A DNA stretch of 64,000 nucleotides from Eledone cirrhosa (lineage: Eukaryota). The stretch spans positions 75,516,001-75,580,000 of the forward strand of contig OZ024742.1 in NCBI GenBank assembly GCA_964016885.1, read 5' to 3'. The position numbers were made by a program, and so were the translations under genes. Below the pieces are notes generated by a model that was not told the DNA's origin, did not search any database, and saw only the letters and a program-made list of their open reading frames with translations. This document shows positions 1-41,694 of this stretch, piece after piece (position 1 is the first letter of the stretch; each line of letters opens with the position of its first letter).

Positions 1-118
1 TTATTCCAATTTCTAATTTCTGCCGGACCGGCAACCGCTCTTTCAAACCAGTTCCTGTACACAGCTAAGTATTCTATAAGTCTCTAGCTGTGTCATTCTC
101 GATAAAAGCACTGGATAT

Positions 119-161
119 GTAGTCCTGAAGATTTCTAATAAGAATGAAACGCGTAGATTAC
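119..161 (+). ncRNA. Minimal type I hammerhead ribozyme
   Basis: gtagtc-CTGAAGA-t ttct aata agaa t-GAAA-cgcg-TA-gattac; stem I gtagtc/gattac pairs; palindromic stem III. Confidence 0.85.
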
Positions 162-428
162 TTCCCTTGCTTTTATCGAGAATCTAATCGTAATACGTGA
201 CGTATTCTATTCTATAGCGATTAGGTCTTCAAAATGTTTATTATAAACATACAGAATATTTTCGAATATTCTATGTCTATATTCACATATATATCGCTAT
301 TTCAGAGCATTTATTCCAATTTCTAATTTCTGCCGGACCGGCAACCGCTCTTTCAAACCAGTTCCTGTACACAGCTAAGTATTCTATAAGTCTCTAGCTG
401 TGTCATTCTCGATAAAAGCACTGGATAT

Positions 429-471
429 GTAGTCCTGAAGATTTCTAATAAGAATGAAACGCGTAGATTAC
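429..471 (+). ncRNA. Minimal type I hammerhead ribozyme (second tandem copy)
   Basis: Identical to 119-161, 310 nt downstream. Confidence 0.85.
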
Positions 472-628
472 TTCCCTTGCTTTTATCAAGAATCTAATTG
501 TAATACGTGACGTATTCTATTCTATAGCGATTAGGTCTTCAAAATGTTTATTATAAACATACAGAATATTTTCGAATATTCTATGTCTATATTCACATAT
601 ATATCGCTATTTCAGAGCATTTATTCCA

Positions 629-707
629 ATATATATATATATATACATATATATATATATATATATATATATATATATATATATATATATATATATATAT
701 ATATATA
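629..707. repeat. (TA)n microsatellite, representative of dozens in the window (e.g. 1046-1154, 6062-6130, 13296-13396, 33240-33435, 37550-38120)
   Basis: Direct reading. Confidence 0.95.
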
Positions 708-1469
708 ATGTATATATGGTATCAAATGATGTTGGCTTGTTTTTCTTTTTGGTAAATATCATCTTCGTTAAGAGAGTGGGACTGGCTTTGTGCAGTGCCT
801 TTGTCACTATAAAAGCTTCACGGCACAGACATTGCTTTATATCTGGAGATCTCTCTGCACTTGTAGTCACATGGTACTATGGGTCCAGCACTATGTATCA
901 ATAACTGTCACAAGTGAAGATTTGTACCAGAGTTTTCAAGTCGCTGGTTGGACTAAAAAGTCTCACTAGTTCAGCGCATCGGTAGGAGTTCTCCTACATA
1001 GATATAAAGTAGTGGCCGTACTCGAAAACGAGTTGGCAGCACCACATATATATATATATATATATACACACACATACACACACATATATATATATATATA
1101 TATATATATATATATATATATATATATATATATATATATATATATATATATATACACAGTTCAAGAGTAACCAATCTTAAAGAGAGAGATGGAGATAGTA
1201 GAGGTGATATGGGAGGATAGATTGGTGCGTTAGTTAGAAGCCAAAGCGTAAAGGCATGTGCTCAATGTGCAATATGCACTAGAAAGCAGCTAGGTGGCTG
1301 GGTTCATGCAGAAGTTAGGTGCGCAGAGCTGGAAATATTCATTAGTTAAGAAAAACAAGACCACAAACCTCACAAGGAAGACATTATTAAAAGATTGTCA
1401 ACATATTTTAGTTTGATGTAAGGAATGTAGAGAATAATCATAATAATAATATTAATAATAATAATGTCC

Positions 1470-37143: not shown

Positions 37144-38320
37144 TTATATTATTTATACTCCAGTCCTACAAACTGTAGAGTGCTACTTATCCGATATCTG
37201 CATTGCTTTATTGTACTACAATAAACTCACCTCCTACACACATATATATATATATATATATATATATATATATATATATATATATATATATATATATATT
37301 ATAAAGTGAGGTCTTTTTACAAAATGAAAAATAACCTAGGTGTTCTATACGAATGAAAGTATAAGGAAATCAAAAATGCGACTGCAGTCTTATTTTTAAA
37401 AACCAACCTGATGTGAGAAAACAACAGACGCTCCATCTCAACTCTACTTTTGAAAAACAGAAGAACAGCGAAAACGGTAAAGGAACCAAATAAATAAATA
37501 TATTTTTTTAAAAATAAGACTCCAGTTGCATTTTCGATTTCATCTTCTTTCCTTATATATATATATATATATATATATATATATACATATACATACACAC
37601 GCACACACACATATATATATATATATATAAATATACACACATATATATATATATATACATATATATATATATAGATATATATACATATATATACACATGT
37701 ATACATATATGTATAAATATATATAAGTATATATATATATATATAAACAATTAAGTTAAACAAGTCATACAAAAGTGAGTTACAAACGAAACGAAATTTA
37801 ATTTCGTTTCGTTATTTGTTTTTATATATATATATATATGCATATATATATGTATGTATATATATGTTTATATATATATATGTATATATATATATATATA
37901 TATATATATATATATATACCTATATATATATATATATACATATATATATTTACATATATATTCATATATATGTATATATATATATATATATATATATATA
38001 TATATATATATATATATATATATATATATATATATATAATTCAAAAGATAACCTGTTATCCCGTATATATATATATATATATATATATATATATATATAT
38101 ATATATATATATATATATATATTTATTCAGGTTTGAGGTTCACCACTGGATAGAGCTGGTCTATTCCGTATGGTCAATCGTAATGCAATAATATAGAGAG
38201 TACTCAACGTAAAGCAGTTCAACCGTCTTTGTTTTTGTAGTTGGTGGTGCTATTACGGAGTTAAATATTATAATGAAATGACAGGAGGCTGGATTTGTGT
38301 AAATCCTTGAAAGGTTTATT

Positions 38321-38378
38321 ATACTATGATCATTTCAATGACCGGGTTCCGTATGAATCCGGTGATATCATCAGGTAT
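38321..38378 (-). ncRNA. Type I hammerhead ribozyme
   Basis: Reverse complement of 41449-41506. Confidence 0.85.
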
Positions 38379-41300
38379 TCGAAATATAATACGTGAATGT
38401 AATAGGTAAAATCCATGGGGCTGAAAATCGAGACCCGAGGGCGACCGCTATTCTGTTCCTTCAACCTCAGCCGGTCGCCCTGGAGTGACGTGGCTAAATT
38501 TTATAGTATGCTACTACCGGTCAGATGAACGAAAACAGAAAGAGATGGGAGCATAGGTTAACGTCGATCCCATGACACAAGGTAAAAGAAAGAAAGAAAG
38601 GAAGGAGAAGAAGGGGGAAGAAAGAAGAAGAGAAGTCAGGGTTAATGTCAGCTAAAAGAGGAAGGTAACTACTACTGGTCAGATATAGGCAAGCAAGAGG
38701 GGGAAGGAAGATAAGTCTACGGGAGGAGGAGAGGAGAGAAGGAAGGGAAGAGAGAAGTAGAAAAGTAAGGGTTGATGGCTACAAGAAGGAAGATAGAAAG
38801 GAAGAGGAAGAAAGGTCGATATTAATGTCGGACCACAGTTAAGCCAGGAGTGGCGCGAGAAAATTTTCACAGGGACCCGCATCTTAGCGGAGATGAATAT
38901 ATTGGGAGTCAGTGTTTTACAGTGTTTAGACTTCTAGGATGAAGTTAAAAAAATTTAATAATCAATATTCAATATTAAAGAGGTTAGAAAATTTAAAGTT
39001 CAACAGTTTAACAATTAATTATATAATAGTTCCGATTTGTTCTGTAATTTAAAGGTACCATTTGGCGGTTAAAACAACGGCCGCGCCCCGGGCCCCATGG
39101 CGAATTAAGCCACGCCGAGTATTTTCATTTACTGAAAGAAGGGGAAATTTATTTTTCCAAGCACTCCAGGTGAGCTCGTTCGCCAGGGAGCTGGTCGCGC
39201 CGCCATTAAAACCCACCCAACAGTCCGATAGAAAGTTGGAACTTTAAAATTTAGCTTAGAGAAGGAAAAGAGTAATGGTTGATAGCTACAAGAAGGAAGA
39301 TAGGAAGAGAGAGGAAGGAAGGTCGATATTAATGTCACACCACATTCGGGCCAGGAGTGGCGCGACAAAATTTTCACAGGGACTCGCATCTTAGCAGAGG
39401 TGAATATATTGGGGGTCAGTGTGTTACAATGTTTAGACTTATAGGATGAAGTTAAAAAATTAATAAATTAATAATCAATATTCCATATTAAAGAGGTTAG
39501 AAAATTTAAAGCTCAACAGTTTCAGGTTGATATATATAATAGTTCCGATTTGTTCCGTAATTTAAAGGTACTATTTGGCGGTTAAAACACCGGCCGCGCC
39601 CCGGGCCCCATGGCTAATTAAGCCACGCTCAGTATTTTCATTTACTGAAAGAAGGGGAATTTATTTTTACAAGCACTCCAGGTGAGCCCGTTCGCCAGGG
39701 AGCTGGTCGCGCCGCCGCTAAAACCCACCCAACGGTCCGACAGAAAGTTGGAACTTTAGAATTTTGCTTAACTCTATCGGATGAAGTTGAAAGAATTCAG
39801 AATAACATTATGAAACTAAGGAGTAAGAGGATTGAGAATTGAACAAACAGAAAATTGAAGATTAGACATTCAAATAACTTCTATGAGGTTTTGGGTTGCG
39901 GGGTTTAATTAAATAGACTTTTATGAAGAAACGTTAATTGTATTATGTAGATCTGTAATTTATCCTAGTGGGATGTAGAGTACGGGATATAGTCGTGTAA
40001 TGTTTAATTTTTGTTCTCAGGAGGAGACATTCTAGTGTCGTGTGCTAATGGGTACAGGTCCCAATGTGAGGAGTAGAAATACATGGATACATAGAAGTGG
40101 AATACGTGGAAGAGCTAATGGGTACAGGTCCCAATGTGAGGGGTAGAAATACATGGATACATAGAAGTGGAATACGTGGAAGAGCACATTGGTACAGCAG
40201 AGGTATAAATATATAAACATATCAATATATAGGTATAAACATGTAAATAAACCAACAAGAGTGGTGTTGGAGTAAGATGGAGAAATCAGGACATTAATAC
40301 AGCAAACAAAGATGTGAAGATATAGATAAACAAACAATAGTCGTTGTCTAGTAAATGTAGAGTTCAAGAGACAGGAGAAATACAATATAGTTCAGGTTGC
40401 GGTATTTATGTTCCCAGGGGGAAATATTCCAGTGACGTGTGCTGAGGGTACACGCGAGTAAAAGTCCGAATAAGGGAAGTAGAAAGTACATGGATGTATA
40501 GAGGTAGAATACGTGGAGGAGCATTAATACAGCAAATAAAGATGTAAAGATATAAATAAACAAACAAGAGTCGTTGTCTATTAAATGGAGAGTTCAAGAC
40601 ACAGGAGAAATACAATATAGTTCAAGTTGCAGTCAGATAATGCATATAGATGTGGAAACAGTGCGTGTTCGAGTCTGGGAGTTCAGTGTGAGTTATACAT
40701 GCCCAGAAGTATAGGGTAGCCATTTAGTTAATTCAGTGCAGTACAATACATGTTTTAACCGCCAAATAGTACCTTTAAATTACAGAACAAATCGGAACTA
40801 TTATATAATTAATTGTTAAACTGTTGAACTTTAAATTTTCTAACCTCTTTAATATTGAATATTGATTATTAAATTTTTTTAACTTCATCCTAGAAGTCTA
40901 AACACTGTAAAACACTGACTCCCAATATATTCATCTCCGCTAAGATGCGGGTCCCTGTGAAAATTTTCTCGCGCCACTCCTGGCTTGACTGTGGTCCGAC
41001 ATTAATATCGACCTTTCTTCCTCTTCCTTTCTATCTTCCTTCTTGTAGCCATCAACCCTTACTTTTCTACTTCTCTCTTCCCTTCCTTCTCTCCTCTCCT
41101 CCTCCCGCAGACTTATCTTCCTTCCCCCTCTTGCTTGCCTATATCTGACAAGTAGTAGTTACCTTCCTCTTTTAGCTGACATTAACCCTGACTTCTCTTC
41201 TTCTTTCTTACCCCTTCTTCTCCTTCCTTTCTTTCTTTCTTTTACCTTGTGTCATGGGATCGACGTTAACCTATGCTCCCATCTCTTTCTGTTTTCGTTC

Positions 41301-41448
41301 ATCTGACCGGTAGTAGCATACTATAAAATTTAGCCACGTCACTCCAGGGCGACCGGCTGAGGTTGAAGGAACAGAATAGCGGTCGCCCTCGGGTCTCGAT
41401 TTTCAGCCCCATGGATTTTACCTATTACATTCACGTATTATATTTCGA

Positions 41449-41506
41449 ATACCTGATGATATCACCGGATTCATACGGAACCCGGTCATTGAAATGATCA
41501 TAGTAT
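41449..41506 (+). ncRNA. Type I hammerhead ribozyme
   Basis: atac-CTGATGA-tatc accggattc atacg gaacccggt catt-GAAA-tgatca-TA-gtat, then aataaa. Confidence 0.85.
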
Positions 41507-41694
41507 AATAAACCTTTCAAGGATTTACACAAATCCAGCCTCCTGTCATTTCATTATAATATTATATATATATATATATATATATATATATATATATATA
41601 TATATATAAATATATATATATATATATATATGTATATATATGTATATATATATATACGCACATATTATGCATATACTTACATATATTATGTATA

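What the first reader, a model, noticed from the sequence alone, without database searches (positions are those of the whole stretch)
1..41563. A zoo of hammerheads, each family carrying its own palindromic stem III
Seen in sequence: at least 12 near-canonical type I HHRs from about 8 families within 42 kb. Counting A15.1 and U16.1, stem III is self-complementary in each family and different in each: ACGCGT (119, 429), ACAATTGT (1470, 2461, 5808), ACTAGT (6392, 17348), ATGCAT (7907), ACTACGTAGT (19264), ACGATTGT (32263, with G-U), ATGCGCAT (37040), ATGATCAT (38321, 41449). Established: minimal PLE-associated HHRs with palindromic stem III cleave as dimers. Inference: the palindrome could act as a family-specific pairing key that allows cleavage only between two copies of the same family, insulating co-resident elements from each other.
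Basis: partly seen in the sequence, partly recalled or inferred. Interest (0 to 1): 0.72.

Follow-up and report, generated by a model that had tools for sequence, protein, structure and literature searches.

The report
Known dimer-type hammerheads, no private passwords
The window holds 14 hammerhead ribozyme motifs with a self-complementary third stem, of the kind already described for Penelope-like jumping elements and animal retrozymes; the palindrome is predicted to let two copies pair, and likely is not a private key for each family.

Summary
At or beside the 13 listed coordinates there are 14 type I hammerhead motifs in 8 families. Nine have an exact CUGANGA core, a non-G residue at position 17 and a stem I of at least 4 bp. 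Three carry CCGATGA, one carries TTGATAA, and one is truncated. All 14 have a loopless, self-complementary stem III.

A descriptor found 6 motifs in the window against 0 exact-core hits in 40 shuffles. In 1.064 Mb of the same genome, a descriptor with no palindrome rule found 102 motifs against 2 in reversed sequence. Of these, 89 were palindromic.

This is the published dimer-type hammerhead of Penelope-like elements and animal retrozymes (PMC4209133, PMC7229834).

The "family-specific key" reading is not supported as a special role:
- Eight different palindromes in eight families is the chance expectation (P about 0.75).
- Genome-wide, unrelated families re-use palindromes: 13 shared pairs against 1.68 expected.
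- In the double hammerhead stem I is also exchanged between copies, so it discriminates on its own.
- The natural tandem transcript folds into the double hammerhead in cis.

This scan noted the same pattern earlier on other DNA of this genome. No cleavage was measured.

The parts
1..630 (+). Two units of a 310-nt tandem repeat (34% G+C), each carrying one hammerhead. The array continues upstream of the window and meets an inverted array of the same unit head to head.
   Evidence: TRF gives period 310, 2.0 copies, 99% matches. blastn shows an inverted copy at -763..-191 relative to the window start. The 37-nt hammerhead has 1578 exact copies in the genome, in 310-nt arrays. G+C.
118..162 (+). 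Hammerhead of the 310-nt family. Core CTGAAGA 125-131, 14-nt stem II with U-U at its base, stem III ACGCGT 149-154, H17 A155, stem I 6 bp.
   Evidence: It pairs with the next unit as a double hammerhead in the MFE fold.
428..472 (+). Second hammerhead of the 310-nt family. Core 435-441, ACGCGT 459-464, H17 A465.
1466..1593 (-). Hammerhead-like motif with core CCGATGA (U4 to C), 95-nt stem II, stem III ACAATTGT 1481-1474, and only 3 contiguous stem I pairs.
   Evidence: There are 539 genomic copies of the core region, and 98 of the first 100 listed read CCGATGA.
2457..2584 (+). Same CCGATGA / ACAATTGT family, second copy.
5804..5931 (+). Same CCGATGA / ACAATTGT family, third copy.
6390..6434 (-). 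Hammerhead with core CTGATGA, 14-nt stem II (C-A at its base), stem III ACTAGT 6403-6398, H17 U, stem I 6 bp.
   Evidence: The family forms 468-511-nt tandem arrays elsewhere.
7905..7950 (-). Hammerhead with core CTGACGA, stem II with G10.1-C11.1, stem III ATGCAT 7918-7913, H17 C, and an interrupted stem I.
   Evidence: A relative with 67.5% identical flanks keeps ATGCAT but has a different stem I.
17346..17390 (+). Second copy of the ACTAGT family. Core CTGACGA, one mismatch in stem II.
19262..19355 (+). Decayed hammerhead. Core TTGATAA (two changes), 59-nt stem II, stem III ACTACGTAGT 19338-19347.
32264..32358 (+). Hammerhead with core CTGAAGA, 62-nt stem II, stem III ACGATTGT (one G-U in the duplex), stem I 7-8 bp.
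   Evidence: The homodimer MFE is a double hammerhead.
36845..36913 (-). Inverted, truncated partner of the next motif.
   Evidence: Inverted arms 36813-37149, 90% identical.
37038..37106 (+). Hammerhead with core CTGACGA, 36-nt stem II, stem III ATGCGCAT 37091-37098, stem I 7-8 A-U pairs.
   Evidence: The homodimer MFE is a double hammerhead.
38264..39076 (-). Left arm of an 813-nt, 99% complementary inverted pair. Its hammerhead lies at 38381-38318: core CTGATGA, imperfect stem II, ATGATCAT, stem I 4 bp.
40751..41563 (+). Right arm of the same inverted pair. Its hammerhead lies at 41446-41509 and is identical to the left one.

Best explanation
These are type I hammerhead motifs of the known dimer type carried by Penelope-like elements and their non-coding retrozyme offshoots, and the self-complementary stem III is predicted to let two copies pair into a double hammerhead.

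A single copy cannot close stem III, which is only A15.1-U16.1 plus 4 to 8 self-complementary bases. In a transcript with two units, the two stem III segments would form one duplex. Each 5' stem I strand would pair with the 3' stem I strand of the other unit, which would give two active sites. Cleavage after H17 would release unit-length RNA. By analogy with published retrozymes, that RNA would be circularised by a cellular ligase and copied into AT-rich DNA by a Penelope-like RT/GIY-YIG enzyme.

The palindromes differ between families because only self-complementarity is constrained. They likely drift by paired changes and G-U intermediates. Family specificity is likely a by-product that stem I shares.

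Shown here: the motifs, their excess over chance, the palindromy, the tandem and head-to-head arrangement, and the predicted folds. Inferred: cleavage, the need for a dimer, circularisation and mobilisation.
For: 1. The motifs are real.
- 6 window hits against 0 exact-core hits in 40 shuffles.
- 102 motifs in 1.064 Mb against 2 in reversed sequence, using a descriptor that did not ask for a palindrome.
- 83 of the 102 are Watson-Crick palindromes and 6 are palindromes with G-U; the control gave 0 of 2.
- 42 of 53 independent loci are palindromic.

2. Fold predictions.
- The unconstrained MFE of the natural transcript 110-480 pairs 149-154 with 459-464 (6 of 6).
- It also pairs 2.x of unit 1 with 1.x of unit 2 (6 pairs) and 1.x of unit 1 with 2.x of unit 2 (6 pairs).
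- Two cis stems I cost 6.9 kcal/mol more.
- The homodimer MFE is the double hammerhead in 3 of 6 families.

3. Arrangement.
- 310-nt tandem array, with 1578 exact hammerhead copies in arrays that often run - then +.
- 48 of 102 census motifs are tandem, with periods 310, 468-511 and 522.
- Head-to-head arms.

4. Link to Penelope-like elements.
- GIY-YIG gave 10,596 first-look candidates; all 150 scored were over the cut-off.
- 4 of the 6 long ORFs scanned carry RT plus C-terminal GIY-YIG.
- At 2 of those 4 loci an AGTACT-stem III hammerhead lies 386 and 408 nt downstream on the same strand.

5. Drift under a pairing constraint. The clusters with stem I UAUUUUAU carry ATGCGCAT, ATATATAT, ATATGTAT and ATGTATAT. 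All of these pair with themselves.

6. Literature (passages read).
- Palindromic helix III and dimeric action in PLE hammerheads (PMC4209133).
- Axolotl hammerhead with a one-pair stem and a palindromic tetraloop that cleaves better in dimeric constructs (PMC7229834).
- A PLE protein cleaves and extends both DNA strands and prefers AT-rich DNA (PMC11167929).
Against: - No cleavage, RNA ends or circles were observed. No run holding the repeat is on record as RNA, and only contigs could be laid.
- Rfam reports no hammerhead.
- The double hammerhead is not the homodimer MFE for 3 of 6 families: ACTAGT, ATGCAT and ATGATCAT.
- Only the 310-nt family has a same-strand partner inside the window. The other 7 families are solo or inverted there, so they could dimerise only in trans.
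- No RT/GIY-YIG ORF lies in the window. The 17 ORFs of 150 aa or more that were scanned show only LINE-type domains.
- None of the 8 window families was found directly downstream of a PLE ORF.
- The CCGATGA family has at least 539 copies with a non-canonical core. A paper reports that cleavage was not needed for PLE insertion in vitro (PMC11167929). Cleavage may therefore be dispensable.
- Published in vitro rates for PLE hammerheads are low even as dimers (PMC4209133).
Confidence: 0.8

Rival explanations
1. The stem III palindrome is a selected, family-specific pairing key that permits cleavage only between copies of one family and so insulates co-resident families.
For: - The eight window families have eight different palindromes.
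- Stem III hetero-duplexes between window families of equal length pair at only 3 to 7 of 6 to 8 positions, and unequal lengths cannot form both junctions.
- Heterodimers are predicted to be weaker than both homodimers in 14 of 15 window family pairs; ACTAGT with ATGCAT slightly exceeds the ACTAGT homodimer.
- Flank clusters that share stem I UAUUUUAU differ in palindrome (ATGCGCAT against ATATATAT). For those pairs stem III is the only discriminator. The heterodimer was weaker than both homodimers for one natural pair (-3.9 against -13.3 and -5.5 kcal/mol) and intermediate for the other (-7.6 against -13.3 and -6.9).
Against: - All-different is expected by chance in the window (P about 0.75).
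- In 1.064 Mb, 24 collinear-flank clusters (19 with a palindromic stem III) give 13 pairs with an identical palindrome against 1.68 expected. These pairs have different stem I sequences. Pairwise blastn of 400-nt contexts found no similarity between the representatives tested for ACTAGT and ACAATTGT.
- Only 16 six-base and 64 eight-base keys exist.
- Stem I is also exchanged in the dimer and discriminates between every pair of different window families, with at most 4 contiguous pairs.
- The cis neighbour in a tandem transcript is the predicted partner.
- Related elements keep the palindrome while stem I changes, as ATGCAT and ACTAGT show.
- Four literature searches found no statement of this idea and no data for it.
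Confidence: 0.1
2. The longer palindromes work in a single molecule as a mini-hairpin: 2 to 3 pairs capped by a palindromic tetraloop, as in canonical animal hammerheads. These copies would cleave as monomers, helped by loop contacts or proteins.
For: - 8- and 10-base palindromes can be drawn as 2 to 3 pairs plus a 4-nt loop, for example ACT-ACGT-AGT.
- PMC4209133 describes canonical metazoan helix III as 1-2 bp capped by a small palindromic loop.
- PMC7229834 reports efficient single-motif cleavage for invertebrate retrozymes.
- Related elements switch between a palindrome and a true hairpin, as ACCATGGT and ACC-TCAGCG-GGT do in one flank cluster.
- Families with ACC-NNN-GGT hairpins co-exist in this genome.
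Against: - Six-base palindromes (ACGCGT, ACTAGT, ATGCAT) leave one pair plus a tetraloop.
- None of the 6 predicted monomer MFE folds contains a stem III hairpin closed by A15.1-U16.1.
- For the 310-nt family the double hammerhead is 6.9 kcal/mol better than two cis forms.
Confidence: 0.15
3. Most copies in this window are dead insertion products whose ribozyme no longer does anything. The palindromes are simply inherited from master copies.
For: - 5 of 14 motifs have core or site defects.
- 7 of 8 families are solo or in head-to-head, 5'-truncated arms within the window.
- The CCGATGA family amplified to at least 539 copies with a non-canonical core.
- Cleavage was not needed for PLE insertion in vitro (PMC11167929).
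Against: - 9 of 14 motifs are intact.
- The 310-nt units are 99% identical, and the hammerhead has 1578 exact copies, which points to recent activity.
- 42 of 53 independent loci keep a pairing-competent stem III.
- This rival concerns the copies, not the design, so it can hold together with the best explanation.
Confidence: 0.35

Closest known systems
Minimal and palindromic-helix-III type I hammerheads in the pLTRs of metazoan Penelope-like elements (Cervera and de la Pena 2014, PMC4209133, passages read; Lunse, Weinberg and Breaker, RNA Biol 14:1499, seen only as a reference and in the review PMC6765202)
   Same: - Type I topology and a conserved core.
- Helix III reduced to a short palindrome, with predicted action as a dimer.
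- An odd base or mismatch at the base of helix II.
- Many sequence families within one genome.
- Pairs on opposite strands a few hundred bases apart.
- In this genome an AGTACT-type motif lies about 400 nt downstream of RT/GIY-YIG ORFs.
   Different: - None of the 8 window families was found next to a PLE ORF.
- Stem II is 12 to 96 nt here, against the 7-8 bp helix II described for the Schistosoma consensus families.
- G10.1-C11.1 is present in only some of the families.
Metazoan non-LTR retrozymes (Cervera and de la Pena 2020, PMC7229834; Li et al. 2026 preprint 10.64898/2026.07.22.740005, passages read)
   Same: - Low-GC tandem repeats of about 170-400 bp, each with one type I hammerhead.
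- The 310-nt family here has 34% G+C.
- The axolotl HHR_Amex1 has a one-pair stem III with a palindromic tetraloop, which is the ACGCGT design. HHR_Amex2 has U-U at the base of helix II, as the 310-nt family does.
- Better cleavage is reported for dimeric constructs.
   Different: - Expression and circular RNA were not shown here.
- Most invertebrate retrozymes in that paper have a more stable helix III and cleave as single motifs, whereas these are of the amphibian-like dimer type.
- Several families here have much longer units or are seen only as solo or two-armed copies.
Double hammerheads of avocado sunblotch viroid and newt satellite 2 (Forster et al. 1988, Nature 334:265; known to me from citations in PMC4209133 and PMC6765202, paper not read)
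   Same: An unstable stem III that is completed by pairing two units, so that cleavage is confined to multimeric RNA.
   Different: Those are an infectious RNA and a vertebrate satellite. Here there are many co-resident families in one invertebrate-like genome.

Membership tests
Type I hammerhead ribozyme | Conserved core C3-U4-G5-A6-N7-G8-A9 and G12-A13-A14 | tested here: met
   Met in 10 of 14 motifs. 3 have C at position 4 and 1 has two core changes.
Type I hammerhead ribozyme | Three helices around the core, with stem I open, and a non-G residue at position 17 | tested here: met
   Stems I and II are present in cis. Stem III can form only between two copies. H17 is non-G in 13 of 14 motifs.
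Type I hammerhead ribozyme | Match to the Rfam covariance model at gathering score | tested here: not met
   0 matches at gathering score. No hammerhead among the 150 matches listed at E up to 10. Cervera and de la Pena needed a dedicated relaxed descriptor to find loopless helix III variants (PMC4209133).
Type I hammerhead ribozyme | Self-cleavage after H17 | not testable with these tools
   No RNA holder was listed and only contigs could be laid.
PLE-type dimeric hammerhead (PMC4209133) | Palindromic positions 15.2-16.2 and loop 3 | tested here: met
   14 of 14 window motifs. 89 of 102 census motifs, found without asking for a palindrome.
PLE-type dimeric hammerhead (PMC4209133) | Location in the flanking repeat of an element encoding RT plus GIY-YIG endonuclease | tested here: inconclusive
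   Not met in the window: the 17 ORFs scanned show LINE domains only. Met elsewhere in the genome for the AGTACT family at 2 of 4 RT/GIY-YIG loci. No window family was seen directly downstream of a PLE ORF.
PLE-type dimeric hammerhead (PMC4209133) | Active as a dimer and poor as a monomer | not testable with these tools
   Thermodynamic prediction only. The double hammerhead is the MFE for the 110-480 transcript and for 3 of 6 homodimers.
Metazoan non-LTR retrozyme (PMC7229834) | Tandem repeats of about 170-400 bp, low G+C, one type I hammerhead per unit | tested here: met
   Met for the 310-nt family: period 310, 34% G+C. The ACTAGT family has 468-511-nt arrays elsewhere. The other 6 window families were not seen as arrays in the window.
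Metazoan non-LTR retrozyme (PMC7229834) | Expressed as linear and circular unit-length RNA | not testable with these tools
   The run kinds are unknown. Contigs of 340 nt (310 + 30) fit either tandem DNA or circles.

The most novel reading that the evidence does not exclude
Stem I and stem III together form a strand-swap code that makes each family an orthogonal self-processing unit. Where two co-resident subfamilies still share stem I (UAUUUUAU), their palindromes have diverged by paired changes (ATGCGCAT against ATATATAT). That divergence could record selection against cross-family dimers.
Probability: 0.1. Interest if true: 0.6.

Novelty: new member of a known kind. Interest (0 to 1): 0.25.

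Why it matters
The motifs add new families to a known class: dimer-type hammerheads of Penelope-like elements and retrozymes, here in a large animal genome where they are very abundant.

The useful result is negative and specific. The variety of palindromes does not need a password function. Any test of specificity must vary stem I as well as stem III, because both are exchanged in the double hammerhead.

If orthogonality between families were shown at the bench, it would be a natural example of self/non-self discrimination among ribozyme-bearing mobile elements. 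It would also give a source of orthogonal self-cleaving modules.

Tried and rejected
- **Rfam.** No hammerhead at gathering score or among the 150 matches listed at E up to 10. The matches listed were microsatellite look-alikes of microRNA families, all below gathering score.
- **The DNA search with a 3-60 gap.** I scanned with a script instead.
- **Strict first descriptor.** It found only 4 motifs, so I loosened it.
- **RNA evidence.** No RNA holder was listed for window 1-630. Four runs of unknown kind were laid, as contigs only. They showed variants at N7 (129 A>T) and in loop II (139, 140) and none in stem III. Nothing could be learned about ends, strand or circles.
- **Family clustering.** Single-linkage clustering on 200-400-nt contexts lumped unrelated families through shared flanking repeats. 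It was replaced by collinear 150-nt flanks.
- **Palindrome as the DNA-level symmetry point of the head-to-head arrays.** Rejected. The symmetry centre of the 310-nt inverted junction lies between the two hammerheads, not at a palindrome.
- **Crude GIY..YIG regex.** No hit on 337 ORFs of 200 aa or more from the 1.064 Mb sample. The Pfam search of the whole genome then found many.
- **Lunse et al. (PMC5785218).** Not held.
- **Prior statement of the key idea.** Searches found none.

Full report
**1. Setting**

The window is G000:C3:75516001-75580000 of a 2.996-Gb animal genome. It has 38.7% G+C. Earlier notes of this scan call the genome octopus-like; I did not verify that.

**2. The observation**

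I read both strands at each of the 13 listed coordinates. I located every GAAA-plus-palindrome and then fixed exact coordinates. There are 14 motif instances in 8 families.

Nine look intact, with an exact CUGANGA core, GAAA, a non-G H17 and a stem I of at least 4 bp:
- + strand: cores at 125, 435, 17353, 32271, 37045 and 41453.
- - strand: cores at 6427, 7943 and 38374.

Five deviate:
- Three copies of the ACAATTGT family read CCGATGA (U4 to C) and have only 3 contiguous stem I pairs.
- The motif at 19269 reads TTGATAA.
- An unlisted inverted partner at 36913-36845 has G at position 17 and no stem I.

A descriptor requiring a palindromic stem III found 6 motifs. In 40 dinucleotide shuffles there were no exact-core hits. 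Rfam found no hammerhead. The Rfam result is unsurprising, because Cervera and de la Pena needed a dedicated relaxed descriptor to find loopless helix III variants (PMC4209133, passages read).

**3. Is the palindrome more than a by-product of how I searched?**

I fetched a further 1.0 Mb of the same genome, from five places on three contigs. I scanned all 1.064 Mb with a descriptor that places no constraint on stem III beyond these:
- a length of 2-16 nt,
- U16.1,
- a non-G H17,
- a stem I of at least 5 contiguous pairs.

It found 102 motifs, against 2 in the reversed sequence. Of the 102, 83 are Watson-Crick palindromes, 6 are palindromes with G-U and 13 are neither. Neither of the 2 control hits is a palindrome.

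Collapsing arrays gives 53 independent loci, of which 42 are palindromic. The 13 non-palindromic motifs include genuine small hairpins (ACC-NNN-GGT) and AGAACT. The dimer-type design is therefore dominant in this genome but not universal.

**4. What the elements are**

The 310-nt family:
- It is a tandem array at 1-630 with 34% G+C.
- The array continues upstream and meets an inverted array of the same unit head to head.
- Its 37-nt hammerhead has 1578 exact copies genome-wide, in 310-nt arrays that often run - then +.

Other arrangements:
- The ACTAGT family forms 468-511-nt arrays elsewhere.
- The ATGCGCAT pair (36813-37149) and the ATGATCAT pair are head-to-head arms. The ATGATCAT arms are 813 nt long and 99% complementary, and the hammerhead lies near the outer, 3' end of each arm.
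- A paper reports that a purified Penelope-like protein cleaves and extends both strands of its target and that AT-rich DNA is preferred (PMC11167929, passages). This would explain two-armed insertions.

Coding capacity:
- The window has no Penelope-like ORF. The 17 ORFs of 150 aa or more that were scanned show only LINE-type domains.
- The genome is full of such ORFs. GIY-YIG gave 10,596 first-look candidates, and all 150 scored were over the cut-off.
- I scanned six long ORFs, and four carry RT plus a C-terminal GIY-YIG.
- At two of those four loci a hammerhead with stem III AGTACT lies 386 and 408 nt downstream on the same strand.
- I did not find any of the 8 window families in that position.

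**5. How the palindrome would work**

Topology requires more than stem III pairing. If the stem III segments of two copies form one duplex, the strand leaving U16.1 of copy 2 carries H17 and the 3' strand of stem I of copy 2. That strand must pair with the 5' stem I strand of copy 1. Stem I is therefore exchanged as well.

ViennaRNA agrees:
- The homodimer minimum-energy structure is exactly this double hammerhead for the 310-nt, ACGATTGT and ATGCGCAT families, which is 3 of 6.
- For the natural transcript 110-480 (two neighbouring hammerheads plus the unit between them), the unconstrained minimum-energy fold pairs 149-154 with 459-464 and both stem I strands crosswise.
- The form with two cis stems I is 6.9 kcal/mol worse.

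These are predictions. Nothing here shows cleavage.

**6. The family-key hypothesis**

First, eight families with eight palindromes is what chance gives. There are 16 possible six-base and 64 possible eight-base palindromes, so the probability that all differ is about 0.75.

Second, in the wider sample the rule fails.
- I clustered 57 motif loci by collinear 150-nt flanks. These were the 53 census loci plus 4 that the strict descriptor missed.
- This gave 24 clusters, 19 of them with a palindromic stem III.
- Thirteen cluster pairs share an identical palindrome, against 1.68 expected from composition-weighted random draws.
- The Poisson tail is about 3e-8. It is rough, because the pairs are not independent and the clusters may share older ancestry.
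- ACAATTGT occurs in 4 clusters with four different stems I, ATATATAT in 4 clusters and ACTAGT in 2.
- Pairwise blastn of 400-nt contexts found no similarity between the representatives tested for ACTAGT and ACAATTGT.

Third, stem I already discriminates. Between different window families the crosswise stem I gives at most 4 contiguous pairs from the junction, against 3 to 7 with their own partner.

Fourth, natural test pairs show that each stem contributes.
- With the same stem I and different palindromes, the heterodimer gains -7.6 or -3.9 kcal/mol. The homodimers gain -13.3 and -6.9, or -13.3 and -5.5.
- With the same palindrome and different stem I, the heterodimer gains -1.4, -2.2, -3.3 or -7.4 kcal/mol. 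The homodimers gain -2.4 to -10.4.
- The heterodimer is weaker than both homodimers in 5 of these 6 pairs.

Fifth, related elements keep the palindrome while stem I changes.
- ATGCAT is kept between elements with 67.5% identical flanks.
- ACTAGT occurs in 28 of 30 members of a family that has three stem I variants.
- This is not what diversifying selection on the key predicts.

The one pattern in favour of the hypothesis is the group of clusters that share stem I UAUUUUAU but carry ATGCGCAT, ATATATAT, ATATGTAT or ATGTATAT. All of these are self-pairing and are linked by transitions and G-U intermediates. Ordinary compensatory drift explains this equally well.

**7. Comparison with what is known**

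- Palindromic helix III, predicted dimeric action, many families per genome and opposite-strand pairs are all described for hammerheads of Penelope-like elements (PMC4209133; review PMC6765202).
- The one-pair stem with a palindromic tetraloop, and U-U at the base of helix II, are described for the axolotl retrozyme hammerheads, which cleave better in dimeric constructs (PMC7229834).
- A 2026 preprint relates animal retrozymes to Penelope-like elements (10.64898/2026.07.22.740005, passages).
- I could not read Lunse et al. or any supplements.
- Four searches found no statement of the key idea.
- Earlier notes of this scan report the same pattern and the same conclusion on other stretches of this genome. 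I reached my reading before seeing them and tested it independently.

**8. Limits**

- The census covers 1.064 Mb of 2,996 Mb.
- The descriptor demands an exact core and 5 contiguous stem I pairs, so it misses real copies. It found only 6 of the 14 window motifs.
- The family clusters are heuristic.
- Energies are nearest-neighbour predictions without tertiary contacts.
- No RNA evidence could be obtained.

**9. Verdict**

The dimer design is already known. These are new family members in this genome. The password reading is not supported as an adaptation, although same-family specificity is a likely physical by-product of exchanging both stems.

Noticed in passing
window 1466-1593 (-), 2457-2584 (+), 5804-5931 (+): This hammerhead-like family has a master sequence with C at core position 4 (CCGATGA). 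There are 539 genomic matches to TTCYGATGAGCCACTCTG, and 98 of the first 100 listed have C. Either this core variant is tolerated or the family spreads without cleavage.
   Followed up: partly
window 36813-37149; 38264-39076 with 40751-41563; array junction about 190 bases upstream of the window start: Head-to-head (5' to 5') two-armed copies with the hammerhead near the outer 3' end. They often lie beside (TA)n tracts (629-717, 37554-38126, 41555-41656). This shape fits priming on both strands by a Penelope-like enzyme (PMC11167929).
   Followed up: partly
window 19244-19252: A second GAAACTAGT lies 91 bases upstream of the decayed 19335 motif. It has no recognisable core before it and may be a further relic.
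   Followed up: no
L116:3335 (-) and L117:3618 (-): Near-identical hammerheads lie 386 and 408 nt downstream of RT plus GIY-YIG ORFs of 636 and 604 aa. They have core CTGAAGA, a 12-nt stem II and stem III AGTACT.
   Followed up: partly
census blocks: C2 40.0-40.2 Mb position 44522, C1 60.0-60.2 Mb position 31235, C3 150.0-150.2 Mb position 137166: Within one flank cluster, stem III is ACCATGGT (palindrome), ACCATAGT (one change) or ACC-TCAGCG-GGT (a true hairpin). Related elements seem to switch between dimer-type and monomer-type helix III.
   Followed up: no
window 24660-29538 (+), 52568-55993 (+), 56415-58817 (-), 60514-61329 (+): LINE-type ORFs with Exo_endo_phos, RVT_1 and zf-RVT domains. 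One open frame of 1141 aa lies at 52568-55993.
   Followed up: no
window 129, 139, 140 (and 439, 449, 450): In public contigs the commonest variants of the 310-nt unit change N7 of the core (A to T, giving CTGATGA) and loop II. No variant reached 10% in stem III. Three runs gave 340-nt contigs, that is 310 + 30.
   Followed up: partly
window 23260-24096, 33551-33947, 51587-51949: Other tandem repeats with periods of 71/281, 200 and 180 nt. They were not examined for ribozymes beyond the window-wide scans.
   Followed up: no
window 7685-7769, 16750-16946 and other microsatellites: (CA)n/(TA)n tracts give sub-threshold Rfam matches to microRNA families such as mir-3149 and mir-5014, all below gathering score. 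These are low-complexity artefacts.
   Followed up: no
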